Assembly: GCA_003222635.1 (NCBI GenBank)
Contig: QHWQ01000313.1
Location: 873-64,872, forward strand
DNA length: 64,000 nt
Reading direction: 5' to 3'
Source: Acidobacteriota bacterium
GTDB lineage: Bacteria > Acidobacteriota > Vicinamibacteria > Vicinamibacterales > UBA2999
A program made the translations under genes and the position numbers. Shown here in pieces: positions 49,556 to 64,000 of this stretch. Under the pieces are notes generated by a model, which did no database searches, was not told where the DNA came from, and saw only the letters and a program-made list of their open reading frames with translations. Numbering within the stretch: the first letter of the stretch is position 1; each line of letters opens with the position of its first letter.

Positions 49556-49654
49556 GTCATGCAGATGTTATGCATCACGACGACGATAGCGCCACGCCTC
49601 TATTCGATAGATCGTCCGCTCGATCGCCAACAGCCGCCGCCTCGCAGCGCGTAA
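49556..49654 (+). pseudogene. Remnant 3' end of a paralog of gene 58754..59875
   Basis: My translation gives ...NVMQMLCITTTIAPRLYSIDRPLDRQQPPPRSA-stop (taa at 49652-49654). The end of gene 58754 reads ...YLCVFHRFSRPIAPRLYSIDRALDCEV.... DNA 49584-49626 is nearly identical to 59778-59820. Confidence 0.6.
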
Positions 49655-49720
49655 GCGGCGCACGCTGGCAGCGGACTTGCTGCCCGCGGGTACCAACCTC
49701 ACACAGAGGAGACCACGCGC

Positions 49721-50029
49721 GTGCGTGATGATCGCGAACAGCAATTGCTGAAGGCCGTACTGAAACGGGCGACCGTCGACCGGCCGTTTCGAGAGGCGCT
49801 CCTGACGGATCCACACACGGCCATCGAACAGACGTTCGGGATCAAGATTCCCGTGCACTATCGCGTGCGCTTCGTCGAACGCGAGGCCGGTGTGGACGCG
49901 CTGATCGTGTTGCCCGACTTCAACCCTGGTGCGGGCGGAGGCAGCGACAACGGTTCCGAGGACCTCGCAGGCGGCAGGAACACCGGGGAAATGACGTGGT
50001 TTACAGAAGGTCGAGCCACCGATGAATAG
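49721..50029 (+). CDS. NHLP (nitrile hydratase-like leader peptide) RiPP precursor A1
   Basis: GTG start with AGAGGAG about 9 nt upstream. Leader QQLLKAVLKRATVDRPFREALLTDPHTAIEQTFGIKIPVHYRVRFVEREAGVDALIVLP is typical of the NHLP family. Double-Gly ...SEDLAGG, then the 17-aa tail RNTGEMTWFTEGRATDE. Confidence 0.8.
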   Translation: MRDDREQQLLKAVLKRATVDRPFREALLTDPHTAIEQTFGIKIPVHYRVRFVEREAGVDALIVLPDFNPGAGGGSDNGSEDLAGGRNTGEMTWFTEGRATDE

Positions 50030-50963
50030 CCCCATCTTTCGGCTGAGCGACTGCCCGCAGCACCTGACGTTCATCGACTGGGTCAAATCCGAGACGGATT
50101 GGCACGACGCCGAGTCGCGCGCGAAACCGCGTGGAAAGTATCCAACGCTCATCGAGCTCGAAGGCCCCGACTTCGACATGAGCGCCATCGGTGGCGCGGT
50201 CGTCGAGGCGATGGGACTCTACGGTGTCTACGGCTGGGCGACCAACGACGGCGCGCGATCGAATGGTTACGTCGGTTTCAGCCTCACCTACAACCCCGAT
50301 CACGAGGAGGGGATCGACGTCCACGCATCGCTGCTCGGCTCGGGCCGGTTGTCGAAGGACGAGTACTTCGCCCGTTTCACCTACCAGGACGCCAACGCCC
50401 GGACCCGCGGCAAGAACAGCTACGACGATACGTACGCCTTCAGGAAACGCACGCCGGCCAGCCGGCACAAGGCGCTCGGCGCGTTCATCGATCGGTTTTC
50501 GCGGCCGCTGCTGCGCAGCCGCGTGTCGGCGATGCGCGGCTCGCTCGGAGGGCAGCAGGCGATTGTCGGCGTCAAACATACGGATCCCAAACGCTGCGAC
50601 GCAGGCTGGCACAGGGACGAGCCGGTCTTCCTTCACCTCAGAGTGAACCTGCCGGTCATCACGCACCCGTCGTTCCGCACGCAGATTGAAGACACGGTGG
50701 ATGCGTTCCTCGAGCCCGGCAGACTCTACAGCTGGGACACCGATCTGCCACATCGGCCGATCGCCACGGAGCGAATCGACAAGGTTCGCATCCATCTGGT
50801 CCTGGGCTTCTCGCCGTGGCTCGATTATCTCGAAGAGGAGCAGGCCTACGTGCTCAACGAGTACTACGGGCGGCTCCATCCGTTCGACATGCTCAACGAA
50901 GGTCTGATCTTCCCGGGCACCCGCATCGCGACGAAGAACTCGATGGAGGTGTCGCTCACATGA
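50022..50963 (+). CDS. Putative Fe(II)/2-oxoglutarate-type cupin oxygenase (Asp/Asn beta-hydroxylase-like), low-confidence family call
   Basis: 313-aa ORF overlapping the A1 stop by 8 nt. Candidate facial triad in GWHRDEPVFLHLRVNLPV...YSWDTDLPHRP (HxD...H), laid out like AspH-family cupins. Assignment rests on motif resemblance only. Confidence 0.45.
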   Translation: MNSPIFRLSDCPQHLTFIDWVKSETDWHDAESRAKPRGKYPTLIELEGPDFDMSAIGGAVVEAMGLYGVYGWATNDGARSNGYVGFSLTYNPDHEEGIDVHASLLGSGRLSKDEYFARFTYQDANARTRGKNSYDDTYAFRKRTPASRHKALGAFIDRFSRPLLRSRVSAMRGSLGGQQAIVGVKHTDPKRCDAGWHRDEPVFLHLRVNLPVITHPSFRTQIEDTVDAFLEPGRLYSWDTDLPHRPIATERIDKVRIHLVLGFSPWLDYLEEEQAYVLNEYYGRLHPFDMLNEGLIFPGTRIATKNSMEVSLT

Positions 50964-51108
50964 ATAGAACCCGGTCTCTACTCGCGACGGAGACCGTCGA
51001 CCGGGACGCCGATGGACGGCGAATCCGGCGATCGATCCTGCTGGTATGGATTCTGCGGACCGCAGCACCACGCGTGTCGTACACGTGATCGCGCGAAGGA
51101 GAAAAAGC

Positions 51109-51435
51109 ATGGCAAATCGGTCAAAGCCGACGACTCGGAGAGAGCTGGAGACGGCGATTGTCGTCAAGGCGATCAAGGACGGCGAGTTCCGTCAGAGGCT
51201 GCTGAGCAATCCACGCGAAGGCGTTGTGGCGGCGGTCAAGGAGATCGATCCGGACTTCGAGATTCCACAGGGCATCGACGTCAAGGTGTTCGAGGAGCCG
51301 AAGAAGGCGTTCTACCTGGTGCTCCCCCAGACCCCGACGGACAACATCGAGATCTCGGACGAAGACCTCGAAAAGGTGGCGGGTGGCATCTTCACCGACC
51401 AGTGGGGGGATGCCACGGTCATCATCGGCTACTAG
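51109..51435 (+). CDS. NHLP RiPP precursor A2 (divergent leader class)
   Basis: ORF 51046..51435. Likely start MANRSKP at 51109, preceded by AAGGAG. Leader ELETAIVVKAIKDGEFRQRLLSNPREGVVAAVKEIDPDFEIPQGIDVKVFEEPKKAFYLVLPQTP. Double-Gly ...DEDLEKVAGG, then the 15-aa core IFTDQWGDATVIIGY. Confidence 0.85.
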   Translation: MANRSKPTTRRELETAIVVKAIKDGEFRQRLLSNPREGVVAAVKEIDPDFEIPQGIDVKVFEEPKKAFYLVLPQTPTDNIEISDEDLEKVAGGIFTDQWGDATVIIGY

Positions 51436-51464
51436 GCACCGGACAGCGAACCGATGGGTTGCCG

Positions 51465-51508
51465 GGGTCCTACGTCTGGAGAGCCGTACGACCCCGCGTT
51501 TCCTTTTA
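51465..51508 (+). terminator. Candidate intrinsic terminator/attenuator just downstream of precursor A2
   Basis: GGGGTCCTACG (51465-51475) pairs with CGTACGACCCC (51486-51496): 11 bp with one mismatch and a 10-nt loop. It is followed by the T-rich GCGTTTCCTTTT. Confidence 0.4.
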
Positions 51509-51543
51509 CCTCGACCCGTCAGAAGCCAGGCACGAGCTCGCGA

Positions 51544-53646
51544 ATGACTGACGTCTGCCTCGTACAGATGCCGTACGCGCTGGTGAACCGCCCCTCGCTG
51601 GGGTTGAGCCTGCTGAAGTCCTATCTCGAGACCGCGGGGCTGAGCACGCGCATTCTGTACGCGAACATCCTGTTCGCCGAGGAGATCGGGCTCGACGTGT
51701 ATCGCGCGGTGGAGGAATCGCCGCCGCACGATCTGCTGGGCGAGTGGACCTTCTCGGAGGCGGCGTTCGGCGCTGGCTGGGGCGATCCCGACGCCTACTT
51801 CCGGCTCATCGCCCGCAGCTTCGGCGATGCGCACATGAAAGTCCTGCGGCGCTTCCACCCCGGCGTCGATCTCAAGCAGCTCTTTCTGCTGCTGCGGCAA
51901 CGCGCCGTCGACTTCGTCGATCGCTGCGCCCGCGACGTCATCGATCGCTCGCCGCGCATCGTCGGCTGCACCTCGATGTTCCACCAGCAGGTCGCATCGC
52001 TGGCCCTGTTGCGGCGCGTGCGGCAGCTCGATCCGAACGTCATCACCATGCTCGGCGGCGCCAACTGCGAAGGACCCATGGGGAGGAAGACGGCCGAGCT
52101 GTTCCCATGGGTGGACTTCGTCAACTCCGGCGAAGCGGACGCGTACATTGGCTCCTTCTGCCGCCGCCTGGTGGACACCGGCCTTCCGGCCGGCGTCGAG
52201 GAGCTCCCCGAGGGACTGTTCGGGCGGGCGCGCCGCCGCGCCTCCGATGCGCCGCCGCGAAATGGCCCGCGGCGGCTCCCTCTCGCCGGAGAGGCGGCGG
52301 AAGGCCGGACCGCGCCCCGGGCCGTCGTCCACAATCTCGACGCCACCGCCGTGCCGTCGTTCGACGAGTACTTCGAGGCGTTCGCGAAATCCTCGTTCAT
52401 CGATTACGTCACGCCGACGCTGCCGATCGAAACGTCCCGCGGCTGCTGGTGGGGACAGGTGAGCCACTGCACGTTCTGCGGTCTCAACAGCTCGGGCATC
52501 GTCTTTCGATCGAAGTCGCCGGACCGGGTGCTCTTCGAGATGCGCTATCTCTCCGACCGCCACGGCGTCCGTCGCTTCGAGACGGCCGACGAAATTCTCG
52601 ACATGGCGTTCCTGAAGACCGTGCTGCCGCGGCTGGCCGACGAGACGCCGTACACGATTTTCTACGAGGTGAAATCGAACCTCAAACGCGATCAACTGGA
52701 AGTGCTGGCGAAGGCGGGCGTGCGCGAGGTGCAGCCCGGGATCGAGAACCTGCACGACGAGATGCTGAAGCTGATCGCCAAGGGCAACACCGGCCTGATG
52801 AACATCCAGTTCCTGAAATGGGCCGCGGAGCTGGGCATGCGAGTCGGCTGGAACTTCCTGTTCGGCGCGCCCGGCGAGTGCGATCACTGGTACCAGGAGA
52901 TCGCCGAACGCGTTCCGCTCCTGCTTCATCTGCAGCCGCCAGGGTGCGTCTCGCGAATCGGCTACCACCGGTTCAGCCCCTATCACGACGATCCCGCGCG
53001 CTTCGGCATCAGCCTCGATCCGCGCCGCGCGTACGGCCACGTGTATCCCGTGGCCGCCGAGAATCTCCGCGACCTCGCCTACTACTTCGAGGACTACGGC
53101 GACCGCTCCCGCGGCGAGATCGAGCCCGCGTTGCCGGGCCACGACAGGCCGGGTCTCAGAGCAGCGGCGGCGGCAATCCGACGCTGGCGGCATGCGTTCT
53201 ACAGCTCCACGCGCGAGCGCCCGGTCCTGGTGGCCGAGCCCTCCAGTGCCGGACTGCTCGTGCGCGACACCCGGCTCGTGGCGACGGCGCGCGAACATCG
53301 TCTCGAGCCGATGCCGGCCACGGTGCTGAGACTGTGCCGTACGGCGGCCACGGAAGCCTCGCTGCGCAGCAGCCTGGACGCGACGGCAGGCCGGACGATC
53401 TCGTCTGCCGAATTGCACGACACGTTGAGCGACCTGCAGAACCGAAAGCTGATCCTGCAGGATCGCGGACGCTTCCTCAGTGTGGTCCTCGACACGATGC
53501 GGCCGCTGCCGACGCATGCGGAATCCGCCGCGGGAGAAATCCGCACCGTCGATTTCGCGCGGCACTTCGCCGCGCGCAGTCTGGCGCGAGAGTGCATCCG
53601 TCTCCCCCAGGACGTCCCCGTCCCGGAGCTGTTCTCGGTCTCGTAG
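51544..53646 (+). CDS. Cobalamin-binding-domain (class B) radical SAM RiPP maturase, paralog 1 (TIGR03975-like)
   Basis: ORF 51454..53646, likely start MTDVCLVQMPY at 51544. B12-like N-domain (VGCTSMFHQQVASLALLRRVRQLDPNVITMLGGANCEG) and cluster motif ETSRGCWWGQVSHCTFCGLN. Followed by EVKSNLKRDQLEVLAKAGVREVQPGIENL. Confidence 0.8.
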   Translation: MTDVCLVQMPYALVNRPSLGLSLLKSYLETAGLSTRILYANILFAEEIGLDVYRAVEESPPHDLLGEWTFSEAAFGAGWGDPDAYFRLIARSFGDAHMKVLRRFHPGVDLKQLFLLLRQRAVDFVDRCARDVIDRSPRIVGCTSMFHQQVASLALLRRVRQLDPNVITMLGGANCEGPMGRKTAELFPWVDFVNSGEADAYIGSFCRRLVDTGLPAGVEELPEGLFGRARRRASDAPPRNGPRRLPLAGEAAEGRTAPRAVVHNLDATAVPSFDEYFEAFAKSSFIDYVTPTLPIETSRGCWWGQVSHCTFCGLNSSGIVFRSKSPDRVLFEMRYLSDRHGVRRFETADEILDMAFLKTVLPRLADETPYTIFYEVKSNLKRDQLEVLAKAGVREVQPGIENLHDEMLKLIAKGNTGLMNIQFLKWAAELGMRVGWNFLFGAPGECDHWYQEIAERVPLLLHLQPPGCVSRIGYHRFSPYHDDPARFGISLDPRRAYGHVYPVAAENLRDLAYYFEDYGDRSRGEIEPALPGHDRPGLRAAAAAIRRWRHAFYSSTRERPVLVAEPSSAGLLVRDTRLVATAREHRLEPMPATVLRLCRTAATEASLRSSLDATAGRTISSAELHDTLSDLQNRKLILQDRGRFLSVVLDTMRPLPTHAESAAGEIRTVDFARHFAARSLARECIRLPQDVPVPELFSVS

Positions 53647-53649
53647 CCA

Positions 53650-55167
53650 GTGGGGAAGCACGCGATGACTGCGCCGATTGCGGAGCGAACACGGGCCGAT
53701 GCGCAATGGAGCCCGGCGCGCTATAGCGTGCTGTGCCGGATGAAGCGGTTCTTCGAGCGCTACGACGGCGACGCGGAGTTTCGCGTCCGCTACGAGCAGA
53801 ACCCGCGGCGGGCGCTCGCATCCGTCGCTCCCGATCTCGCCCTCGAGGACATCCGGGCCGTTCGCAGCGTACCGCGCCATCCGCCCGCGAGCATCGTCGA
53901 CGACGTCTCGCTGCCGCCGCTCGCCCGCGACTACTGCCGCTTCGTGCTCGAGCGAGCGCTGCGCTTCAATCGGCTGCGCGCGGAAGCGGGGCCGCTCGAT
54001 CCGCGTTTTCGCGGCTGGCGCCGCCGCCGCATGCTGCAGGCCGAGGACGAGCTCGGTTCCGAGTTCTCACAGATGTTGCTGTTCTCGACGGCCGCGTTCG
54101 AGCTGTCGAAGGGTTGCAGCGTCGGTTGCTGGTTCTGCGGAGTCTCGGCGCCGCGCCTCGAGGATCACTTTCGATATACCTCCGTGAACCGGCGCCTCTG
54201 GCGTGAGGTGCTCGAGGCCATGATCGACCTCGGCGGTCTCGAGGCGATGCACATCAACTTCTGCTTCTGGGCCACCGACCCGCTCGACAACCCCGACTAC
54301 GAAGCGTTCGCTGACGACTACCGCGCGATCGCCGGCGCGTACCCGCCGCTGACGACGGCGCTGGCGCTGCGCGACCCGGAGCGGACGCGCCGGATGCTCG
54401 ATCGGTTCGATGCCGATGTGTGCCGGTTCTCGATCCTGACGGTTCCGATGCTCGACCGGCTGCATCGCGAGTTCACTCCGGAGGAACTGGGAGGCGTGGA
54501 CCTGGCGCTGGTCACTCCAGGATCCAGGATGATCAAGGCGAACGCGGGCCGCTTCCGCGAGCGCGCGGCCGCGCACCCCGAGCTGCTGCAGGTTGAGCGC
54601 GGCAAGCGAAGCGCGCGCCGTGAATTCTTTCAAGGTCCCGCCGATCGCGGCGAGGACGTGCCGGGCACCATCGCCTGCGTCGCCGGATTCCTGATCAACA
54701 TGGTCGAACGGCGGGTCCGTCTCATCAGCCCCTGCGCGGCGTCGGAGAGGTGGCCTCTCGGCTTTGTCCTCTACGGCGATCGCCGCTTTGAGGACGGCCG
54801 CGACTTCCGGCGCGTCTGCGAAGAGCTGGTGTGCGAGCACATGTTCACGCGCTGGCCAGCCGGCCGTGCGGTACGCTTCCGGCCCTCGCTTCACTTTCAC
54901 CCGCTCGGGTCGGGTTTCGAGCTGCGCTCCACGCACCATCGCTGGTCGATCGAGGCCGCCTGGCAGGGCGCCGCCTGCCACGATCTTGGCGCCTGGATCA
55001 ACGACGGATGTCACCAGCCGGGCGAGCTCACGGAGCTGCTCCTCGAGCGCCACTTCGTGTCCGCCTTTGAAACGGAGAAGCAAATCAGTCAACTGCTCCG
55101 CGAGGGCCTGCTCGACGAAGAGCCGCCGCCGCGCGCCGCCACATCTCCATCTCAGGGAGCGCCATGA
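53650..55167 (+). CDS. Radical SAM enzyme with an N-terminal extension of about 150 aa (possible peptide-modifying maturase)
   Basis: Canonical CX3CX2C in FELSKGCSVGCWFCGVSA at about residue 155. No B12 domain and no obvious SPASM Cys cluster. 505 aa (alternative start at 53665). Confidence 0.65.
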   Translation: MGKHAMTAPIAERTRADAQWSPARYSVLCRMKRFFERYDGDAEFRVRYEQNPRRALASVAPDLALEDIRAVRSVPRHPPASIVDDVSLPPLARDYCRFVLERALRFNRLRAEAGPLDPRFRGWRRRRMLQAEDELGSEFSQMLLFSTAAFELSKGCSVGCWFCGVSAPRLEDHFRYTSVNRRLWREVLEAMIDLGGLEAMHINFCFWATDPLDNPDYEAFADDYRAIAGAYPPLTTALALRDPERTRRMLDRFDADVCRFSILTVPMLDRLHREFTPEELGGVDLALVTPGSRMIKANAGRFRERAAAHPELLQVERGKRSARREFFQGPADRGEDVPGTIACVAGFLINMVERRVRLISPCAASERWPLGFVLYGDRRFEDGRDFRRVCEELVCEHMFTRWPAGRAVRFRPSLHFHPLGSGFELRSTHHRWSIEAAWQGAACHDLGAWINDGCHQPGELTELLLERHFVSAFETEKQISQLLREGLLDEEPPPRAATSPSQGAP

Positions 55168-58516: not shown

Positions 58517-58728
58517 TCGCAGTCCTGCTTCCGCTGGGACTGGCGATCTTCGGGTTCTGGATCTGGATGTTCGTTGACGCGTTGCGGAACAAGAGGTTGA
58601 CCCCACACGACCGGAAGTGGTGGGCGATCGTGCTCGTGGTGCTGCGACCGGTAGGAGCACTGCTCTATTACTTCAAGCAGTACCGCGGGCGACGGTTGTC
58701 CAATGTGAGCCGCCCGAAAACGTCGTAA
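58489..58728 (+). CDS. Small membrane protein with a PLD-nuclease N-terminal (PLDc_N) domain
   Basis: 79 aa with two helices: VIAVLLPLGLAIFGFWIWMFVDAL...KWWAIVLVVLRPVGALLYYF, matching the PLDc_N pattern. The ORF overlaps the end of the JmjC gene by 28 nt. Confidence 0.6.
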   Translation: MSDRGENNVIAVLLPLGLAIFGFWIWMFVDALRNKRLTPHDRKWWAIVLVVLRPVGALLYYFKQYRGRRLSNVSRPKTS

Positions 58729-58753
58729 CGCGAGCGGGCCTGCAGAGGGAACC

Positions 58754-59875
58754 ATGCGCTGGTCATTGGCCCACGTCCTCGACGCGGCCGCGCCGCACCT
58801 CGACGTGTGGCTCGCCGCTCCGCGGGAGCTGACGCGCGCCCGCTCGCTGCTCGCCTCGCTGCCCGCCGCGATCTCGGATTGGATCTACCTCGAGTTCCGG
58901 CTCTCTCCACGCGATGCCCGAATAGATGTCATTGTCCGAGTGGACGAGGCACACCGGCATCGACTCGCCTGCGGATCGCCGTGGCGGCGCGCCAACGCGT
59001 TTGCACGGATGTGGGCGGATCCTGAAGTGGGCTGGAATCGCGCGATCGAAAACCTCTGGCTCGAGTTCGATTTGGAGGGCGCCGCGAGTGACGAGTCTCC
59101 GCATCTGCACGAGCCGCGGTTCTTCGTCGACTTCACATCGTCGATTCGGAACGACCCATCACCCGACATTCGGTGGCGCGTGGCGTGCGATGCCATCGCG
59201 CCGTTATGTCCGGAGGCGCTGCCCTCTGAGGTCACGCAATCGCTGAGGCGCACGCTGCATGCGCTGCCATGCGGCGCGTCGCTGCTCTCGGTAGGACTGC
59301 CTCACGGTGCGGCGATGCCGGGCCTGCGTGTCTGCCTGACCGGTGTCGCGACGAGCGACCTCTCTTCATTCCTCCGCGCGGCCGGCTGGGCATGTGACGG
59401 CGGTGGCGTGTCGGAGGTCCTCCATCAGCTGTTCGACGCGCCGGGCGGAGCAGGCGTGATTGACCTCGTCGATCTCGATCTCACATCCGACGGTCGCGGC
59501 GCACTGAGCATCGAGCTCGGCTTCGCGCGCAAGCCGCAGCTGCGCGGCGCGATCGAGGAGCGGCACCTGCTCGAACGTCTCGCGGCATGTCATGCGATCG
59601 ATGCGGCGTCGATCGACGCGCTTGGCGCCTGGCCGGGGTATGAGAGGGCGCGCCTGGCGCACGTGTTCTGGCCGGCGCTCCTCGTTCGCCGGATCAACCA
59701 CGTCAAGCTGATGTTCGAGGACGGTCGCATCAGCGGCGTGAAGGCCTATCTGTGCGTGTTCCACCGCTTCAGCCGGCCGATAGCGCCACGCCTCTATTCG
59801 ATAGATCGTGCGCTCGATTGCGAAGTCGATCGCTTCCTCCCTGACAGTGGAACCGCGCCCGCGCCGCTCGCGTAA
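58754..59875 (+). CDS. Hypothetical protein, no recognisable motif (cluster-specific)
   Basis: 373-aa ORF with consistent GC-rich third codon positions. No cofactor or nucleotide-binding motif seen. Repeated short beta-strand-like segments (IYLEFRL, IDVIVRV, LWLEFDL, FFVDF, LRVCLTG, LSIELGF, VKLMFE, VKAYLCVF). Confidence 0.6.
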   Translation: MRWSLAHVLDAAAPHLDVWLAAPRELTRARSLLASLPAAISDWIYLEFRLSPRDARIDVIVRVDEAHRHRLACGSPWRRANAFARMWADPEVGWNRAIENLWLEFDLEGAASDESPHLHEPRFFVDFTSSIRNDPSPDIRWRVACDAIAPLCPEALPSEVTQSLRRTLHALPCGASLLSVGLPHGAAMPGLRVCLTGVATSDLSSFLRAAGWACDGGGVSEVLHQLFDAPGGAGVIDLVDLDLTSDGRGALSIELGFARKPQLRGAIEERHLLERLAACHAIDAASIDALGAWPGYERARLAHVFWPALLVRRINHVKLMFEDGRISGVKAYLCVFHRFSRPIAPRLYSIDRALDCEVDRFLPDSGTAPAPLA

Positions 59876-59932
59876 TCGCGCGCACCCGCGTGGCAACAGG
59901 CTTGCTCCCGAAGGGCGCGAACTGTTCGCGAG

Positions 59933-60235
59933 ATGTGCGTGCCCAATGACCAACAAGATCAGTTGCTGAAGGCCGTCCTGAAACGGGCCACGGTCGACCG
60001 GCCCTTTCGTCAGGGGCTGCTGACGAATCCGCACACCGCCATCGAGCAGGCGTTCGGGATCACGGTGCCCGCCGAGTATCGCGTGCGTTTCGTCGAACGC
60101 GATGCCGACGTTGACGCGCTGATCGTGTTGCCCGGCTTCGACGCCCATGCCGCCGAACTGCAGAACGACGAACTATCGGACGACGAGCTCGAGCACGTGG
60201 CGGGCGGCAAGCACGCCCACAGGTGGGGTGACTAA
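59933..60235 (+). CDS. NHLP RiPP precursor A3 (same leader class as A1)
   Basis: Leader DQLLKAVLKRATVDRPFRQGLLTNPHTAIEQAFGITVPAEYRVRFVERDADVDALIVLP. Double-Gly ...DDELEHVAGG, then the 8-aa core KHAHRWGD. Confidence 0.8.
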   Translation: MCVPNDQQDQLLKAVLKRATVDRPFRQGLLTNPHTAIEQAFGITVPAEYRVRFVERDADVDALIVLPGFDAHAAELQNDELSDDELEHVAGGKHAHRWGD

Positions 60236-60256
60236 CGAGGCGGCTGCCTCGGGGAG

Positions 60257-61780
60257 ATGCCGATGACGACCGATGCGCTTCCGCTCCCGGCGGCATTCGA
60301 GCTTCAGCGCACGCGTGACGCTGATGATGCCCCGGAACTGACAGAGGACGACCTCGCGTGTGTCGTTGGCGGACTGGCGCGGGCCTGGTCGGCACCGCCG
60401 GATGAACACCGCGCGTCCGACCATGAGAGTCCAACGTATCAAGGCGTCCTCGTCGCCGCCGGTGAACCTTTCGATCCGCGCTTCAGCACCTCGGTCGGCG
60501 GATCGCGCGAGACCCAGTTCACGGGCGCGACGCCGGCCGGACGCACCGATGCGGTGGCCTACGGCGCCGGCGGCAGCTGGCGATTGCGCTCGGGCTTCCA
60601 GCTCCAACCGGAATTCAGCATGACCGGCGCCAGCTTGCTGACCGCCTCGCGACTCGCGCTCGGACAGTCGTCGATGAAGCTTGGCCTGCTGATTCCGTTG
60701 CAGAACGATCGCGGCGGCATCGTCACGGCGGGCCCGGAGCGCGCGGCACGCTACGAGGTGGACGCCAGCCGCTCGCGGCTGCGGCAGGCGATCACCGACG
60801 CGGCCTATTCCACGGCGGCGGCCTATTGGGATTACGTGGCAACACTCCAGCGCCAGGCGATCTACGCCGCATCAGAAGCACGCGCCGCGCGTCTGGTCGA
60901 TGAAACGCGTGTGCTCGTGCAGGCGGACGAGCGGACGGCCGCCGACCTCACGCAGCTGCTCGGCAACCTCGCCGCCAAGCGCGCCATCCGGCTCGGCGCC
61001 GATCTCGCGGTGACGCAGGGATGGGAACGCCTCGTCCTGGCGATGGGCGTAGAAGCGACGACAGTGCAGCGAGCGGCCGTGCCCGCAACGCCGTTTCCCC
61101 CCGTCGTTGCGGCGTGGACGCCGCCGCCGCTGGCCGCATTGATCGGTGACGCGAGGCTTCGCCGCGCCGATCTGACAGCGGCGACGCAGCAGGTCGAGGC
61201 GTCACGCGTGCTGGTCGACGCGGCGCGCAACAATCTGCAGGACTGGCTCGACCTGGTGCTGACGGGCGGCTACAAAGGGTGGCAGCTCGGCGGCGGGGCC
61301 GATCGGTTCTTCACACCGCTGTTCCGCGAGATCCCGGGCGTCGATGCGTCGGTCCAGATCCGCTACGAGTTTCTCGCGAGCAATGCTGGCAACCGCGGCC
61401 GCCTGCTGCAGCAGTCGGCGATCGACGACACACGCCATCTCGCGCTCGCCGACCTCGAACGCCACGTGGCAGCCGAAGTCGTGGTGGCCGTTGAGGTGCT
61501 GCGGCGCAGCACTGACTCCCTGGCCGCGTCTCAGGAGGCGGGGCGGCTCTTCGACGAGGGCGTACAGAACGAGGAACGCAAGTTTCGCCTCGGCCTGTCC
61601 ACGCTGTTCGACGTGATTCAGGCCGCAGACGGGCTCACCAACGCGCGGCTGACCGAAACGGCCGCGCAGCGCGACTATGCAGTGGCGATCGCCACGCTGC
61701 GGTATCAGTCCGGGACGCTGCTGCGCTTCGACGAGGAGCGTCCAGTGATCGACGCGGCCAACCTGCTCACGCCTCCCTGA
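60257..61780 (+). CDS. TolC-family outer-membrane efflux protein with an atypical N-terminus
   Basis: The C-terminal 350 aa or so has TolC-like coiled helices (AAYSTAAAYWDYVATLQRQAIYAASEARAARL..., RRADLTAATQQVEASRVLVDAARNN, FRLGLSTLFDVIQAADGLTNARLTETAAQRDYAVAIATLRYQSGTL). The first 60 aa or so lack a signal peptide and instead resemble a double-Gly leader. Confidence 0.7.
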   Translation: MPMTTDALPLPAAFELQRTRDADDAPELTEDDLACVVGGLARAWSAPPDEHRASDHESPTYQGVLVAAGEPFDPRFSTSVGGSRETQFTGATPAGRTDAVAYGAGGSWRLRSGFQLQPEFSMTGASLLTASRLALGQSSMKLGLLIPLQNDRGGIVTAGPERAARYEVDASRSRLRQAITDAAYSTAAAYWDYVATLQRQAIYAASEARAARLVDETRVLVQADERTAADLTQLLGNLAAKRAIRLGADLAVTQGWERLVLAMGVEATTVQRAAVPATPFPPVVAAWTPPPLAALIGDARLRRADLTAATQQVEASRVLVDAARNNLQDWLDLVLTGGYKGWQLGGGADRFFTPLFREIPGVDASVQIRYEFLASNAGNRGRLLQQSAIDDTRHLALADLERHVAAEVVVAVEVLRRSTDSLAASQEAGRLFDEGVQNEERKFRLGLSTLFDVIQAADGLTNARLTETAAQRDYAVAIATLRYQSGTLLRFDEERPVIDAANLLTPP

Positions 61781-61789
61781 CCCACAGCC

Positions 61790-63052
61790 ATGCCCTCGAA
61801 CGCGATCTTCAGAAAAGTTGCACTCGATCGTCTGGCCTCGCCCGAGCAGCTCGATCAGTTGATGCAGGTCACCGACCCGCGAGGATGGATCGCGCTGGTC
61901 GGCCTCAGCTTCGTGGTCGCGACGGCGGTCGCCTGGGGCGTGCTGGGCAGCGTGCATCAGAACGTCCATGGAGCGGGCATCCTGGTGCGCAGCGGCGGCG
62001 TTTTCGAAGTGGTCCCGCTCGCCGGAGGACGTGTCATCGACGTCTCGGTCGCCCCCGGCGCCGTCGTGAACGCGGGACAGGTCGTCGCGCGGTTGGACCA
62101 GCCCGACTTGCTCGAAGGCCTCGCGCGCGCGAAAGCCACGCTCGCGGCCCTGCGCGACGAGCACCAGCAGACGATTGAGTACGGCGACAAGGACATCGTG
62201 CTGCAGACCAGCTACCTGAAGGAGCAGCGCACGACGATCGAACATGCCATTGCGGCCGCCGAGCGGAACATGGCGTGGTACCAGGAAAAGATCGCCTCGC
62301 AGCAAGGGCTCGTCACGGACGGCCTGCTGCTGAAGCAGGCCCTGCTCACCACTCAGCAGCAGTACGACGCTGCGAACGAACGCCTGGCGGACGCGCGCAG
62401 CCAGCTCGCGCAGCTGGAAGTGCGCGAACTGGAGCTGCACAACAAGAAGGACGAGGCCATCGAGGACAGTGAGCTGAAGCTCGAAGAACACGAGCGCGCG
62501 CTGTCGGAGCTCGAACGCGAGCTCAAGGCGAAAAGCGAAGTCGTCGCTCCGCAGGGAGGACGCATCCTCGAGGTGATGACCGAAACGGGCGCCGTCGTCG
62601 CCGCCGGTCAGCCGGTGCTTTCGCTCGATCTGACGGGGCGCACTGTCAAGGACCTGGAAGCGGTGATGTACGTGCCCTCGATCCAGGGCAAACAGATTCG
62701 GGTCGGCATGCCGATGCTGGTCGCCCCGGCGACGGTGAAGCAGGAGGAATTCGGGATGATGCTCGGCCGCGTCACCTACGTCTCGGATTTCCCGGCGACG
62801 ATGAAAGGCATGCAGCGCATGTTGAAGAACGAGCGCCTCGTCGCCGGACTCGCGGGCAGCGACGCACCGTACGAAGTGCACGCGGACCTCGTCCTCGATC
62901 CCGCCACCGTGAGCCGCTACCGGTGGACCTCGTCGCAAGGGCCGCCTACGAAGATCGAGAGTGGCACCCTCGCGGCCGCGAGTATCACGGTCACGACGCG
63001 CCGCCCGATCGAGCTGGTGATTCCGTTGATTCGCGAGTACCTGGGACTGTAG
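61790..63052 (+). CDS. NHLM bacteriocin-system secretion protein (HlyD-family periplasmic adaptor, TIGR03794-like)
   Basis: FRKVALDRLASPEQLDQLMQVTDPRGWIALVGLSFVVATAVAWGVLGSV, followed by lipoyl-like and long coiled-coil segments. This is the typical N-terminus of this family. Confidence 0.85.
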   Translation: MPSNAIFRKVALDRLASPEQLDQLMQVTDPRGWIALVGLSFVVATAVAWGVLGSVHQNVHGAGILVRSGGVFEVVPLAGGRVIDVSVAPGAVVNAGQVVARLDQPDLLEGLARAKATLAALRDEHQQTIEYGDKDIVLQTSYLKEQRTTIEHAIAAAERNMAWYQEKIASQQGLVTDGLLLKQALLTTQQQYDAANERLADARSQLAQLEVRELELHNKKDEAIEDSELKLEEHERALSELERELKAKSEVVAPQGGRILEVMTETGAVVAAGQPVLSLDLTGRTVKDLEAVMYVPSIQGKQIRVGMPMLVAPATVKQEEFGMMLGRVTYVSDFPATMKGMQRMLKNERLVAGLAGSDAPYEVHADLVLDPATVSRYRWTSSQGPPTKIESGTLAAASITVTTRRPIELVIPLIREYLGL

Positions 63053-63068
63053 GCGACGGGACCTGCCC

Positions 63069-64000
63069 ATGACGACCGCTGCGGACACGACCGGCCGCTT
63101 CGCGACATTCTTCACGACTCCTCTCCATCTGTCGCGCTTCGTGGCGCGGCGCGGCCGCGCGACGAAGCGGGTGAAAACACCCACCGTGCTGCAGATGGAG
63201 GCCGTCGAGTGCGGCGCCGCGGCGCTGGCGATGGTCCTCGCCTACTTCGGCCGCTTCGTGCCACTGGAGGAGCTGCGCGTCGAATGCGGCGTGTCGCGTG
63301 ACGGCAGCAAGGCCAGCAACGTCCTGAAGGCTGCGCGCGCCTACGGTCTCGACGCCAAAGGGTTCAGGAAAGAGCCCGCGCAGCTGAGGACCCTTCCGGT
63401 GCCGATGATCCTGCACTGGAATTTCAACCACTTCGTCGTGTTCGAAGGCTTCCGTCGCGGCGGCGCCTACATCAACGACCCCGCGGCCGGCGCCATGCGC
63501 ATCTCCGAGGACGAGCTCGATCAGGCCTTCACCGGCGTCGCGCTGGTGTTCCAGCGCAGCGCCGCGTTCGTGCGAGGCGGGGAGCGGGCGAGCCTGTTGA
63601 GAGCGCTGCGCCGCCGCCTTGTCGGTTCGGGCGCGGCGCTGGCGTTCGTCGTCACGGCCGGGTTCGCCCTGCTGGTCCCTGGACTGGTGGCGCCGGCATT
63701 CAACAAGGTGTTCGTCGACGAGGTCCTCATCAAGGGACTGGCGACGTGGATCAAGCCGTTGCTGTGGCTGATGGGCGCCGGCGCGCTGGTCACCGCGGCG
63801 CTCACCTGGCTGCAGCAGACCTACCTGCTGCGGCTCGAAAGCACGATGTCGCTGACGATGTCGAGCCGTTTTCTCTGGCACGTGCTGCGGCTGCCCGTCG
63901 ACTTCTTCGCCCAGCGGTTCGCGGGAGACATCAGCTATCGCGTGGGCATCAACGACCGGGTCGCACGGCTGCTGTCGGGCGACCTTGCGACGACGGCGCT
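63069..64000 (+). CDS. NHLM-type bacteriocin export ABC transporter with an N-terminal C39 peptidase domain (partial, runs off the window)
   Basis: Absent from the ORF track because it is open-ended. My translation from ATG 63069 gives ...KTPTVLQMEAVECGAAALAMVLAYFGRFVPLEELRVECGVSRDGSKASNVLKAARAYGLDAKGF...HWNFNHFVVFEGF...INDPAAG, which is a C39 Cys/His peptidase, followed by transmembrane helices. Confidence 0.85.
   Translation, partial: MTTAADTTGRFATFFTTPLHLSRFVARRGRATKRVKTPTVLQMEAVECGAAALAMVLAYFGRFVPLEELRVECGVSRDGSKASNVLKAARAYGLDAKGFRKEPAQLRTLPVPMILHWNFNHFVVFEGFRRGGAYINDPAAGAMRISEDELDQAFTGVALVFQRSAAFVRGGERASLLRALRRRLVGSGAALAFVVTAGFALLVPGLVAPAFNKVFVDEVLIKGLATWIKPLLWLMGAGALVTAALTWLQQTYLLRLESTMSLTMSSRFLWHVLRLPVDFFAQRFAGDISYRVGINDRVARLLSGDLATTA

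What the first reader, a model, noticed from the sequence alone, without database searches (positions are those of the whole stretch)
49556..64000. Proteusin/NHLP-type RiPP cluster with three short-core precursors, three radical SAM enzymes and two cupin oxygenases
One strand carries, with overlapping or tightly spaced genes: precursor A1, AspH-like cupin, precursor A2, class-B rSAM, plain rSAM, class-B rSAM, JmjC/ROX-like oxygenase, PLDc_N membrane peptide, an unrecognisable 373-aa protein, precursor A3, TolC-like, HlyD (NHLM type) and a C39-peptidase ABC exporter. The export genes and the NHLP leaders place it in the NHLP/NHLM (proteusin) superfamily. The enzyme palette (B12-rSAMs, an rSAM of epimerase-like architecture, Fe/2OG oxygenases) recalls polytheonamide-type chemistry. 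The predicted cores, however, are only 8-17 residues long. The window contains no LanM, cyclodehydratase or N-methyltransferase. JmjC/ROX-type oxygenases are known to me only as ribosomal-protein and histone hydroxylases, not as RiPP tailoring enzymes. The product is therefore likely a small, heavily modified peptide of a class I cannot match to anything described. The cluster continues beyond the window end.
Basis: partly seen in the sequence, partly recalled or inferred. Interest (0 to 1): 0.9.

Follow-up and report, generated by a model that had tools for sequence, protein, structure and literature searches.

The report
Tryptophan-prenylating proteusin peptide gene cluster
A soil Acidobacteria operon for small, heavily modified ribosomal peptides is real, and its "unrecognisable" protein has the fold of a tryptophan prenyltransferase, so the product is probably a lipid-tagged peptide assembled from known enzyme types in a combination I found no report of.

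Summary
The + strand at 49.7-64.0 kb carries a tightly packed NHLP/proteusin cluster. HMMs confirm two of the three NHLP precursors, a PoyD-type rSAM epimerase, two PoyB/C-type B12-rSAM C-methyltransferases, an NHLM HlyD and a C39 exporter. A1 scores below the NHLP cut-off.

Four details need correcting. A1 starts at 49721, not 49556. The 313-aa protein has an Fe/2OG oxygenase fold with an HxD...H motif, but it gets no AspH or any other Pfam hit. The "TolC-like" ORF is a fusion: a 151-bp deletion, absent from five sister assemblies, joins a conserved 60-aa double-glycine peptide gene to an outer-membrane gene that has lost its signal peptide. The 373-aa "unrecognisable" protein folds as an ABBA (PT-barrel) aromatic prenyltransferase, and its 50 best structural matches are all aromatic prenyltransferases.

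Its family has about 3,500 representatives and no Pfam model. Members usually sit directly upstream of NHLP precursors (Nif11 in one locus). All 26 short cores examined contain Trp, and 15 end in it.

Precedents exist for leader-dependent Trp prenylation (MppC, NctPC, PalQ), for short Trp-terminal proteusin cores (SrpE) and for JmjC RiPP hydroxylases (CzlI, BipG). I rate this a new variant of a known kind, with no product known. Sigma-54-type promoter elements precede A1 and A3.

The parts
49666..49681 (+). Sigma-54-type -24/-12 promoter-like element (TGGCAGCGGACTTGCT), ending 40 nt upstream of the A1 start
   Evidence: It is one of only two matches in the 64-kb window with at most 1 mismatch to TGGCAC-N5-TTGCW. 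The same element precedes the Fe/2OG gene in L042 and the precursor in L038.
49721..50029 (+). Precursor A1 (102 aa); predicted core RNTGEMTWFTEGRATDE
   Evidence: TIGR03793 39.3 bits, E 4e-10, below the 50.9 cut-off. It is 59% identical to A3. Its locus is a 73%-identical DNA duplicate of the segment [3' end of the PT gene + promoter + A3].
50022..50963 (+). 313-aa Fe(II)/2OG-oxygenase-fold protein from a family with no Pfam model; its start overlaps the A1 stop by 8 nt
   Evidence: No Pfam, NCBIfam or PDB sequence hit. AF2 pLDDT 91. Foldseek matches hydroxylase 7v4f at 4e-9, plus proline hydroxylases, OkaE, SnoN and FtmOx1. H197-x-D199, H244 and R256 are invariant and H258 nearly so. Relatives L040 and L042 keep it in the cluster.
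51112..51435 (+). Precursor A2 (the ORF opens at 51046); predicted core IFTDQWGDATVIIGY
   Evidence: TIGR03793 76.4 bits. The core is identical in L042, where the neighbouring oxygenase is only 86% identical.
51454..53646 (+). B12-binding radical SAM C-methyltransferase, PoyB/C type (730 aa)
   Evidence: TIGR03975 674.5 bits against a cut-off of 281.85. CX7CX2C cluster motif at residue 331.
53650..55167 (+). PoyD-type radical SAM peptide epimerase (505 aa)
   Evidence: TIGR04517 432.2 bits against a cut-off of 325. CX3CX2C motif at residue 156.
55164..57278 (+). Second B12-binding radical SAM C-methyltransferase (704 aa)
   Evidence: TIGR03975 717.9 bits. An ortholog sits next to the JmjC ortholog in L040.
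57275..58516 (+). JmjC (ROX/MINA53/NO66-like) Fe/2OG oxygenase (413 aa)
   Evidence: PF08007 86 bits. Best PDB matches are MINA53 at 8e-23 and NO66 at 1e-20. H148-F-D150 and H216 are present.
58489..58728 (+). 79-aa PLDc_N-type small membrane protein
   Evidence: PF13396 23.4 bits against a cut-off of 23.3. It is conserved upstream of the PT gene or next to the oxygenases in the JGI contig carrying P0033 and in L040.
58754..59875 (+). 373-aa ABBA (PT-barrel) prenyltransferase-fold protein; predicted leader-dependent Trp prenyltransferase
   Evidence: The AF2 model shows 5 alpha-alpha-beta-beta units, pTM 0.79. The Foldseek top 50 are all aromatic prenyltransferases (6-DMATS at 1.4e-7, PriB, IptA, CymD, NphB, CloQ, FgaPT2), with TM-scores of about 0.5. 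Ten charged or Tyr residues are 99-100% conserved across 143 representatives. Genomic linkage to Trp-containing cores is shown.
59891..59906 (+). Sigma-54-type -24/-12 promoter-like element (TGGCAACAGGCTTGCT), ending 27 nt upstream of the A3 start
59933..60235 (+). Precursor A3 (100 aa); predicted core KHAHRWGD
   Evidence: TIGR03793 58.8 bits. It lies immediately downstream of the PT gene, as in most related loci examined (and later).
60257..60436 (+). 5' part of a conserved short double-glycine peptide gene (...LTEDDLACVVGG|LARAW...), fused here to the OEP gene
   Evidence: It is a separate 60-aa gene in L009, L043 and L038, and a 56-aa gene in L002. Homologous ORFs occur in L022, L044 and L045.
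60437..61780 (+). Outer-membrane efflux (TolC/OEP-like) protein body, 5'-truncated by a 151-bp deletion
   Evidence: TIGR01844 scores only 36 bits against a cut-off of 225. The intact gene, with a signal peptide, is present in L009.
61790..63052 (+). NHLM-type HlyD membrane fusion protein
   Evidence: TIGR03794 358.7 bits against a cut-off of 156.2.
63069..64000 (+). C39-peptidase/ABC exporter (PCAT), N-terminal 310 aa; the gene runs off the window end
   Evidence: TIGR03796 413.8 bits over profile positions 1-274. The catalytic Cys lies in an ECG motif at residue 48. The full-length protein is 746 aa in L009.

Best explanation
This is a RiPP operon from a soil Acidobacteria MAG that looks mosaic: it appears to combine two modules, and sigma-54-type promoter elements precede two of its precursor genes.

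Module 1 is a proteusin-type radical-SAM module: precursor A2, a B12-rSAM, a PoyD-type epimerase and a second B12-rSAM. Module 2 is a widespread "Trp-lipidation/export" module: PLDc_N, an ABBA-fold prenyltransferase (PT), an NHLP precursor with a short Trp-containing core, a short GG peptide, OEP, HlyD and a PCAT exporter. In sister contigs ABC2, a periplasmic binding protein and DUF7005 follow. Two Fe/2OG oxygenases are added: a ROX-type JmjC and a member of a family with no Pfam model.

Proposed mechanism. The only steps shown here are family or fold assignments and genomic linkage; every chemical step is inferred.
1. The enzymes bind the NHLP leaders of A1, A2 and A3.
2. The PoyD homolog inverts selected alpha-carbons to give D-residues.
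3. The two B12-rSAMs C-methylate unactivated side-chain carbons.
4. The two oxygenases hydroxylate side chains. Candidates are Asp/Asn, and the His/Arg of KHAHRWGD.
5. The 373-aa PT, guided by the leader, alkylates the single Trp indole of the core with a prenyl diphosphate of unknown length.
6. The C39 domain cuts after Gly-Gly, and PCAT/HlyD/OEP export the small lipidated peptide.

The three precursors give different products, with cores of 8-17 residues that each hold exactly one Trp.
For: Family membership above curated cut-offs is met for two precursors, the epimerase, both C-methyltransferases, JmjC and HlyD. The PCAT, cut by the window end, matches TIGR03796 strongly over its N-terminal third. 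Start and stop codons overlap by 4-28 nt through most of the enzyme block.

PT fold: the model has five alpha-alpha-beta-beta units, and only aromatic prenyltransferases appear among the 50 best PDB matches. E47, D58, E104, D106, R192, E254, R312, K318, K330 and Y332 are 99-100% conserved in 143 representatives. They fall on predicted beta-strands, often two residues apart, as expected for residues lining the barrel interior.

Linkage of the PT family to precursors: members lie immediately upstream of an NHLP precursor in L001, L002, L005, L015-L026, L034, L038 and L043-L048. In Anabaena locus L032 a Nif11 precursor lies about 4.4 kb upstream of the PT gene. Database entries exist in which the PT is fused to an NHLP-like precursor, to LanM or to DUF7005. 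All 26 distinct cores contain Trp, 25 contain exactly one and 15 end in Trp. The chance of this is about 3e-21 at a 1.5% Trp frequency, ignoring relatedness.

Similarity to a characterised substrate: the window A3 core ends RWGD and the L038 core ends TWSA. MppE (ACWRWSG) is geranylated at the Trp in the same position, third from the C-terminus, by a leader-dependent alpha-beta-beta-alpha PT (PMC12715784 and its SI).

Conservation of the tailoring set: L040 carries a B12b homolog, JmjC (59% identity), PLDc_N and the 313-aa oxygenase together. L042 carries the oxygenase, an A2 with an identical core, and B12a.

Sigma-54: the only two 1-mismatch -24/-12 matches in 64 kb lie in front of A1 and A3. 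The element recurs in L038 and L042. A sigma-54 activator gene closes the cluster in L009-L011 and is present in L001 and L040.
Against: - There is no biochemical evidence for any step.
- The PT assignment rests on a medium-confidence model (pLDDT 75, seven-sequence alignment) with TM-scores of about 0.5. No Pfam or PDB sequence hit appears even with a profile.
- I could not compare the protein with the MppC or NctPC sequences.
- In most relatives the PT is paired with LanM rather than rSAM enzymes. The PT may therefore act only on A1/A3, and the rSAM enzymes only on A2, giving two independent products rather than one heavily modified peptide.
- In the window the Trp is never C-terminal, whereas it is in 15 of the 26 related cores.
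- The OEP gene is disrupted in this assembly, so export may be impaired, or the contig may be misassembled.
- The number of sigma-54 matches in the window is no higher than chance; only their placement is informative. The A1 and A3 promoters are also paralogous copies, so they are not independent observations.
Confidence: 0.62

Rival explanations
1. There are two independent pathways sharing one exporter. A2 is a conventional small proteusin modified only by the epimerase and the two C-methyltransferases, possibly also by the 313-aa oxygenase. A1, A3 and perhaps the short GG peptide are substrates only of the prenyltransferase, possibly also of JmjC. No single peptide carries the whole set of modifications.
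For: The A2 leader is only 28-32% identical to A1 and A3, whereas A1 and A3 are 59% identical to each other. The unit PT + A3-type precursor + GG peptide + OEP/HlyD/PCAT occurs without PoyD in the other loci examined, usually with LanM. In L042 the unit oxygenase + A2 + B12a begins at its own sigma-54-type element, with no A1 upstream. A3 has its own promoter-like element.
Against: All the genes lie on one strand with overlapping stop and start codons from B12a through PLDc_N. L040 places B12b, JmjC, PLDc_N and the 313-aa oxygenase together. A2 also carries a single Trp in a WGD motif shared with A3. Leader-dependent proteusin enzymes are known to tolerate foreign NHLP leaders, for example SrpI (PMC10286304).
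Confidence: 0.25
2. The 373-aa protein is not a prenyltransferase. It is a PT-barrel-like scaffold that binds the leader or performs another reaction, so the cluster is an ordinary proteusin cluster with two hydroxylases.
For: There is no sequence-level link to any prenyltransferase family. TM-scores are only about 0.5, and parts of the model are below pLDDT 50 (residues 294-312 and 338-373). No dedicated prenyl-diphosphate synthase gene was seen in the cluster.
Against: The fold matches are exclusively prenyltransferases. Invariant Arg/Lys/Tyr and Asp/Glu residues lie on barrel strands. The adjacent cores always carry a Trp. Published leader-dependent alpha-beta-beta-alpha RiPP prenyltransferases share the same neighbours (LanM, Nif11/NHLP) and the same phyla (PMC12715784 SI). 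Such enzymes use DMAPP, GPP or FPP from primary metabolism.
Confidence: 0.1

Closest known systems
Proteusins of the polytheonamide/aeronamide type (poy, aer): NHLP precursor with a PoyD epimerase, PoyB/C B12-rSAM C-methyltransferases and an Fe/2OG hydroxylase
   Same: NHLP leaders, a TIGR04517 epimerase, two TIGR03975 C-methyltransferases, Fe/2OG oxygenases, a Gly-Gly cleavage site and NHLM-type export.
   Different: The cores are 8-17 residues rather than the much longer poy and aer cores. No N-methyltransferase or dehydratase is present. The oxygenases belong to the JmjC/ROX family and to a family with no Pfam model. A PT-fold enzyme, a PLDc_N peptide and sigma-54-type promoter elements are added. 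The host is a soil Acidobacterium.
Leader-dependent alpha-beta-beta-alpha RiPP prenyltransferases: MppC (Moorena; Trp C5 geranylation of lanthipeptide MppE; PMC12715784) and NctPC (geranylgeranyl-Trp plus cyclisation, as summarised in PMC13290415)
   Same: PT-barrel fold, no similarity to cyanobactin prenyltransferases, neighbourhood of NHLP/Nif11 precursors and LanM, the same phyla (Cyanobacteriota, Myxococcota), and a short core with the target Trp near the C-terminus (RWSG in MppE against RWGD here).
   Different: There is no LanM and no Cys in the window cores; the partners are radical-SAM enzymes and oxygenases. Sequence-level membership with MppC or NctPC could not be tested, and the prenyl donor is unknown. 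No cyclase domain is fused, although DUF7005 is fused to a family member (P0171) and is encoded downstream in L009.
srp proteusins (SrpE core LCCCW; leader-dependent Trp-6 brominase SrpI; PMC10286304)
   Same: An NHLP leader, a very short core and a single Trp at or near the C-terminus as the site of leader-guided indole modification. Relatives L040 and L032 carry Trp-halogenase-family genes next to the same enzyme families.
   Different: The window has no halogenase and no YcaO; the predicted indole chemistry is prenylation.
PalQ/PalX (Paenibacillus; NHLP precursor with a C-terminal Trp prenylated by a trans-IDS-like, ComQ-type enzyme; PMC10853753)
   Same: An NHLP precursor whose conserved Trp is prenylated. 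A regulatory gene lies next to the system.
   Different: PalQ has an entirely different enzyme fold (isoprenoid synthase rather than PT barrel), so the resemblance would be convergent. The Pal system has three genes, and the regulator is a histidine kinase rather than a sigma-54 activator.
JmjC RiPP hydroxylases CzlI (curacozole) and BipG/BpmG/PbsQ (biphenomycins)
   Same: A JmjC-family Fe/2OG oxygenase encoded in a RiPP cluster (PMC11575548, PMC12707348, PMC12257519).
   Different: The window enzyme is closest to the ribosomal oxygenases MINA53 and NO66, whereas CzlI is closest to YxbC. Its substrate residue is unknown, and no sequence comparison with CzlI or BipG was possible.

Membership tests
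Proteusin / NHLP-NHLM RiPP system | Precursor with a nitrile-hydratase-like leader (TIGR03793) ending in Gly-Gly | tested here: met
   A2 scores 76.4 bits and A3 58.8 bits, both above the 50.9 cut-off. A1 scores 39.3 bits, below the cut-off (E 4e-10), but is 59% identical to A3. All three end in AGG followed by the core.
Proteusin / NHLP-NHLM RiPP system | PoyD-type radical SAM epimerase (TIGR04517) | tested here: met
   432.2 bits against a cut-off of 325; CX3CX2C motif present.
Proteusin / NHLP-NHLM RiPP system | PoyB/C-type cobalamin rSAM C-methyltransferase (TIGR03975) | tested here: met
   674.5 and 717.9 bits against a cut-off of 281.85.
Proteusin / NHLP-NHLM RiPP system | NHLM export set: HlyD (TIGR03794) and C39-ABC (TIGR03796) | tested here: met
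   HlyD scores 358.7 bits against 156.2. The ABC scores 413.8 bits over its first 274 profile positions, because the gene is cut by the window end (full-length cut-off 853). The full 746-aa protein with Peptidase_C39, ABC_membrane and ABC_tran domains is in L009.
Proteusin / NHLP-NHLM RiPP system | D-amino acids and C-methyl groups in the mature peptide | not testable with these tools
   This needs heterologous expression, HR-MS/MS and Marfey analysis.
ABBA (PT-barrel) aromatic prenyltransferases, leader-dependent RiPP subgroup (MppC/NctPC-like) | Five alpha-alpha-beta-beta units forming a 10-stranded antiparallel barrel | tested here: met
   The AF2 secondary structure runs H-H-E-E five times, pTM 0.79. 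The Foldseek PDB top 50 are all ABBA prenyltransferases, best E 1.4e-7, probability 1.00, TM 0.45-0.55.
ABBA (PT-barrel) aromatic prenyltransferases, leader-dependent RiPP subgroup (MppC/NctPC-like) | Sequence membership in a described prenyltransferase family (a Pfam prenyltransferase model, or homology to MppC/NctPC) | tested here: not met
   No Pfam hit at E up to 10 for any of the 7 family members, and no PDB sequence hit with the profile.
ABBA (PT-barrel) aromatic prenyltransferases, leader-dependent RiPP subgroup (MppC/NctPC-like) | Conserved basic and Tyr residues for diphosphate binding and acidic residues inside the barrel | tested here: inconclusive
   E47, D58, E104, D106, R192, E254, R312, K318, K330 and Y332 are 99-100% conserved in 143 representatives and lie on predicted strands, often two residues apart. 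No coordinates were available to confirm that they face the lumen or superpose on known ligand-binding residues.
ABBA (PT-barrel) aromatic prenyltransferases, leader-dependent RiPP subgroup (MppC/NctPC-like) | Encoded next to an NHLP/Nif11 precursor whose short core carries the acceptor Trp; often next to LanM | tested here: met
   all 26 cores contain Trp. LanM is adjacent in L001, L005, L014, L016, L022, L044, L045 and L047, and a LanM-PT fusion exists (P0270).
ABBA (PT-barrel) aromatic prenyltransferases, leader-dependent RiPP subgroup (MppC/NctPC-like) | Prenyl transfer to peptide Trp, dependent on the leader | not testable with these tools
   This needs an enzyme assay.
JmjC / ribosomal-oxygenase (ROX) Fe/2OG oxygenases | JmjC_2 domain (PF08007) with an HxD...H iron triad | tested here: met
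   86 bits against a cut-off of 22. Best PDB matches are MINA53 at 8e-23 and NO66 at 1e-20. H148-x-D150 and H216 are present.
   No Pfam or NCBIfam hit at E up to 0.01. No AspH appears among the 50 best Foldseek matches listed, which are other Fe/2OG oxygenases. HxD...H and Arg are conserved.
TolC/OEP outer-membrane factor | Full-length OEP with an N-terminal signal peptide | tested here: not met
   TIGR01844 scores 36 bits against a cut-off of 225. The window copy lacks the signal peptide and its own start frame because of the 151-bp deletion. The sister copy in L009 is intact.

The most novel reading that the evidence does not exclude
The conserved module is a prenyl-Trp peptide signalling system of Gram-negative soil phyla, comparable to ComX/ComQ and PalX/PalQ but built from an unrelated PT-barrel enzyme. 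The module consists of a sigma-54-type promoter element, a PT-barrel prenyltransferase, an NHLP precursor with a single Trp, a short "LxRxW" GG peptide, a PCAT exporter, a periplasmic binding protein, DUF7005 and a receiver-less sigma-54 activator. On this reading the exported lipopeptide would be sensed through the binding protein and DUF7005, and would switch on the sigma-54 activator that drives the precursor promoters. In this Acidobacterium the signal would be further diversified by D-residues, C-methylation and hydroxylation, which would make it the first proteusin combining rSAM epimerisation and C-methylation with Trp prenylation.
Probability: 0.15. Interest if true: 0.8.

Novelty: new variant of a known kind. 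Interest (0 to 1): 0.58.

Why it matters
If the prediction holds, the cluster would make small peptides that combine D-amino acids, C-methyl groups, hydroxyl groups and a prenylated tryptophan. I found no report of this combination, which links two active research lines: proteusin radical-SAM chemistry and leader-dependent peptide lipidation.

It also assigns a fold and a likely job to a large protein family that has no Pfam model. An exhaustive search found about 3,500 representatives at 50% clustering, in Acidobacteriota, Gemmatimonadota, Myxococcota, Cyanobacteriota and Actinomycetota.

The analysis yields a simple genome-mining rule: a PT-barrel gene directly upstream of an NHLP precursor whose short core holds one Trp. 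It also points to four unstudied partners: the 313-aa Fe/2OG family, DUF7005, the PLDc_N peptide and the short "LxRxW" peptide. Leader-guided Trp prenyltransferases are wanted as tools for site-selective peptide lipidation.

Tried and rejected
- **AspH-like label for the 313-aa protein.** No Pfam, NCBIfam or PDB sequence hit. I kept only "Fe/2OG oxygenase fold". Members of its family at about 40% identity sit in non-RiPP contexts (L007, L008), so the family as a whole is not RiPP-specific.
- **The 373-aa family as very rare.** The word-indexed search found only 7 proteins. The exhaustive profile search found 3,480 representatives, so I rejected this.
- **Sequence-level link of the 373-aa family to known prenyltransferases.** A profile against PDB sequences and Pfam scans of all 7 members found nothing.
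- **DUF7005 as an MstE-like terpene cyclase.** I considered this because a DUF7005-PT fusion exists and NctPC is a PT-cyclase fusion. DUF7005 gave no significant PDB sequence hit (best E 0.41, to an unrelated steroid reductase) and no paper mentions it.
- **The rSAM in L002 as a PoyD homolog.** It is DarW/DarE-like instead, so PT plus PoyD is not a general pairing.
- **Cobalamin riboswitch or other structured RNA in the window.** No Rfam match at gathering thresholds.
- **Excess of sigma-54 matches in the window.** The count equals chance; only their placement and conservation are informative.
- **Reading Hubrich et al. 2024 (Chem; PMC11484575).** The paper is not held. What I say about NctPC and steromaze comes from PMC13290415 and PMC13647313.
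- **Upstream genes at 1-49.4 kb.** These include a GH94 glucan-synthase-like protein, an outer-membrane protein, a penicillin amidase and Ig-repeat surface proteins. They are unrelated to the cluster.

Full report
**Origin and observation**

The window matches a 65.8-kb contig of an Acidobacteria MAG. Exact protein matches are PYR74384, PYR74386, PYR74388 and neighbours, all annotated "hypothetical protein".

From about 49.7 kb to the window end, one strand carries a run of genes that overlap or are closely spaced:
- A1, 49721-50029
- a 313-aa protein, 50022-50963
- A2, 51112-51435
- a B12-rSAM, 51454-53646
- an rSAM, 53650-55167
- a second B12-rSAM, 55164-57278
- a JmjC protein, 57275-58516
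- a PLDc_N peptide, 58489-58728
- a 373-aa protein, 58754-59875
- A3, 59933-60235
- a 507-aa ORF, 60257-61780
- HlyD, 61790-63052
- a C39-ABC gene from 63069

The gene upstream (44890-49440, minus strand) encodes an Ig-repeat surface protein. The rest of the window is unrelated housekeeping.

**Family tests**

- A2 and A3 pass the NHLP leader model (76.4 and 58.8 bits, cut-off 50.9). A1 falls below it (39.3 bits, E 4e-10) but is 59% identical to A3.
- The middle rSAM is a PoyD-type epimerase (TIGR04517, 432 bits, cut-off 325).
- Both B12-rSAMs are PoyB/C-type RiPP C-methyltransferases (TIGR03975, 674 and 718 bits, cut-off 282).
- HlyD is the NHLM type (359 bits). The ABC gene matches TIGR03796 with 414 bits over the part that lies in the window.
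- The JmjC protein passes PF08007 (86 bits). It is closest to the ribosomal oxygenases MINA53 and NO66 (1e-20 to 8e-23) and has H148-x-D150 and H216.
- The cores after Gly-Gly are RNTGEMTWFTEGRATDE, IFTDQWGDATVIIGY and KHAHRWGD. Each contains exactly one Trp.

**Corrections**

That frame stops at 49646, and A1 begins at GTG 49721 behind an AGGAG.

The 313-aa protein gives no Pfam, NCBIfam or PDB sequence hit, so "AspH-like" is unsupported. With a 33-sequence alignment it models at pLDDT 91. It matches Fe/2OG oxygenases: the nucleoside-antibiotic hydroxylase 7v4f at 4e-9, proline hydroxylases, OkaE, SnoN and FtmOx1. H197-x-D199, H244 and R256 are invariant, and H258 is nearly so. Its family has at least 274 unannotated members. 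Those at about 40% identity are not in RiPP contexts.

The "TolC-like" ORF is a chimera. Sister assemblies that are 99.6-100% identical (L009, L010, L012, L013, L043) carry 151 extra bases at window position 60436/60437. With those bases there are two genes. One encodes a 60-aa peptide, MPMTTDALPLPAAFELQRTRDADDAPELTEDDLACVVGG|LARAWSAPPDEHRASDHESPTPR. The other encodes an OEP with its own start and signal peptide. In the window the deletion removes the signal peptide and puts the OEP body in frame with the small peptide. Several sister contigs end exactly at this spot, which suggests strain polymorphism or an assembly problem.

**The 373-aa protein**

The word-indexed search found only seven relatives. 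In every one whose neighbourhood could be read except L039, an NHLP precursor with a short Trp-containing core followed the gene directly.

An AF2 model built from that alignment (pLDDT 75, pTM 0.79) shows five alpha-alpha-beta-beta units. All 50 best Foldseek matches in the PDB are aromatic ABBA prenyltransferases: 6-DMATS at 1.4e-7, PriB, IptA, 5-DMATS, CymD, NphB/Orf2, CloQ, AnaPT and FgaPT2, with TM-scores of about 0.5. No sequence method sees this relationship.

An exhaustive profile search shows the family is large: 3,480 representatives at E up to 1e-3, and 874 at E up to 1e-30. Across 143 representatives, E47, D58, E104, D106, R192, E254, R312, K318, K330 and Y332 are 99-100% conserved. 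They sit on predicted strands, often two residues apart, which is the pattern expected for residues lining a barrel lumen.

Some database entries fuse the domain to an NHLP-like precursor (P0196, P0202, P0229, P0299). Others fuse it to LanM (P0270) or to DUF7005 (P0171).

**Genomic linkage**

Scans of reference genomes and metagenomes returned 36 more loci, from Acidobacteriota, Longimicrobium and other Gemmatimonadota, Cystobacter, Polyangiaceae, Streptomyces jumonjinensis, Lyngbya, Anabaena and others.

In L001, L002, L005, L015-L026, L034, L038 and L043-L048 the gene is directly followed by an A3-type NHLP precursor. LanM often lies upstream, and OEP, HlyD, PCAT and a periplasmic binding protein (with DUF7005 in some loci) often lie nearby.

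The 26 distinct cores all contain Trp. Twenty-five contain exactly one, and 15 end in it, for example GDTDVCGKW, TGTQGGW and TGCYSEGSTSW. In Anabaena locus L032 a Nif11 precursor about 4.4 kb upstream of the PT gene has the core FYYGNSRGSSCSQW, which was not counted among the 26. In the others the Trp is a few residues from the end (KYRDYTWSA, GGGELTWSD..., QQINWAEGLG). The chance of this at 1.5% Trp is about 3e-21, uncorrected for relatedness.

**Conservation of the other tailoring genes**

L040 has a JmjC protein 59% identical to the window's. It carries, in order, a B12b-like rSAM, a Trp-halogenase-family flavoenzyme, JmjC, a sigma-54 activator, PLDc_N and the 313-aa oxygenase.

L042 has an oxygenase 86% identical to the window's. 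It carries the oxygenase, an A2 ortholog whose core is identical although its leader has diverged, and B12a.

The PT + precursor + exporter unit and the A2 + rSAM unit also occur separately in other genomes. This marks the window cluster as a mosaic and motivates the two-pathway rival.

**Regulation**

Only two sites in the 64 kb match the sigma-54 consensus TGGCAC-N5-TTGCW with one mismatch. Both are on the + strand, ending 40 nt before A1 and 27 nt before A3. That count is what chance predicts, so only the placement is informative.

The element recurs before the precursor in L038 and before the oxygenase in L042, and in weaker form in L015, L016 and L018. Overall 7 of 23 upstream regions carry it, against 0.017 expected per region.

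A sigma-54 activator with no receiver domain closes the cluster in L009-L011, and activators are present in L001 and L040.

The A1 locus is a 73%-identical duplicate of the segment [3' end of the PT gene + promoter + A3]. L042 lacks A1.

**Comparison with the literature**

- Leader-dependent alpha-beta-beta-alpha prenyltransferases acting on Nif11/NHLP precursors were described recently. MppC geranylates C5 of Trp82 in the lanthipeptide core ACWRWSG and needs the whole leader. Its similarity network (258 UniProt sequences from Cyanobacteriota, Myxococcota and Pseudomonadota) co-localises with LanM, Nif11 and, in nine cases, NHLP genes (PMC12715784 and SI).
- NctPC is a PT-barrel/cyclase fusion that attaches and cyclises geranylgeranyl on Trp (PMC13290415). 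"Steromaze" is listed as a terpene-RiPP hybrid (PMC13647313).
- PalQ prenylates the C-terminal Trp of the NHLP precursor PalX, but has an isoprenoid-synthase fold (PMC10853753).
- SrpE is a proteusin with the 5-residue core LCCCW, whose C-terminal Trp is brominated in a leader-dependent way (PMC10286304).
- JmjC hydroxylases in RiPP pathways are known: CzlI (PMC11575548) and BipG/BpmG/PbsQ (PMC12707348, PMC12257519).

Each individual element thus has a precedent. I found no report of a PT-barrel enzyme combined with a PoyD epimerase, two B12 C-methyltransferases, a ROX-type JmjC and the unannotated oxygenase family. I also found no characterised product for this cluster or a near relative. I could not read Hubrich et al. 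2024.

**Verdict**

The finding is real and the proteusin assignment is right, but the stated reasons for high novelty are partly outdated. The likely products are small prenyl-Trp peptides that may also carry D-residues, C-methyl groups and hydroxyl groups. All the chemistry is inferred. I rate this a new variant of a known kind, of moderate to good interest.

Noticed in passing
window 60257-61780 (breakpoint 60436/60437); L009 8515-8665: A 151-bp deletion, relative to five sister assemblies, fuses a 60-aa GG-peptide gene to the OEP gene. It removes the OEP signal peptide and shifts the frame of its start codon. L010 begins exactly at the boundary of the 151-bp segment, and L012 and L013 begin 19 nt into it, which suggests strain polymorphism or a misassembly.
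   Followed up: yes
window 60257-60436; L009 8341-8523; L038 1547-1729; L002 7575-7745; L022 3051-3254; L044 9410-9613; L045 3400-3993: A short peptide lacking the NHLP domain is conserved between the NHLP precursor and the OEP gene. It has an L(X)4L...VVGG double-glycine motif, and its core begins L-x-R-x-W (LARAW, LARIW, LQRTW, LARVW; LERIY in L022). It could be an extra prenyltransferase substrate or a signal peptide, but its role is unknown.
   Followed up: partly
window 49666-49681 and 59891-59906; L038 1202; L042 about 2500; L009 19843-20937 (activator): Sigma-54-type -24/-12 elements lie directly upstream of precursors A1 and A3. They recur in relatives, and a sigma-54 activator without a receiver domain sits at the cluster end. 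This points to sigma-54-dependent expression of the precursors.
   Followed up: partly
L009 16473-19824 (downstream of the window end); L001, L019-L023; protein P0171: A periplasmic binding protein (Peripla_BP_6/ANF_receptor) and DUF7005 accompany the PT-precursor-exporter module in several phyla, and one database protein is a DUF7005-PT fusion. A class I O-methyltransferase follows in the sister contigs. DUF7005 has no PDB sequence relative and is not mentioned in the literature searched.
   Followed up: partly
window 49584-49924 versus 59777-60141: The A1 locus is a 73%-identical DNA duplicate of the segment [3' end of the PT gene + promoter + A3]. Relative L042 has the promoter directly in front of the oxygenase gene and lacks A1.
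   Followed up: yes
L002 1608-9332: A related cluster pairs the PT-family gene with a DarW/DarE-like rSAM/SPASM enzyme (419 and 353 bits, below the cut-offs), a B12-rSAM C-methyltransferase and a glycosyltransferase.
   Followed up: no
L032 5211-11047 (Anabaena sp. 4-3); L040 912-6334: Trp-halogenase-family genes sit beside PT-family or JmjC/313-aa-oxygenase homologs. L032 carries a Nif11 precursor (core FYYGNSRGSSCSQW), an rSAM/SPASM enzyme, a 2OG-FeII_Oxy_5 protein, a halogenase and the PT. This shows a recurring set of Trp-directed enzymes around these leaders.
   Followed up: partly
window 50022-50963; proteins P0038-P0156; L007, L008: The 313-aa Fe/2OG-fold protein belongs to a family of at least 274 proteins with no Pfam or NCBIfam model. 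Members at about 40% identity lie next to PKS, adenylating-enzyme and acyltransferase genes rather than RiPP genes.
   Followed up: partly
L042 3593-4009: The A2 ortholog in a relative whose neighbouring oxygenase is 86% identical has a core identical to the window's (IFTDQWGDATVIIGY), although its leader has diverged. This suggests purifying selection on the core.
   Followed up: yes
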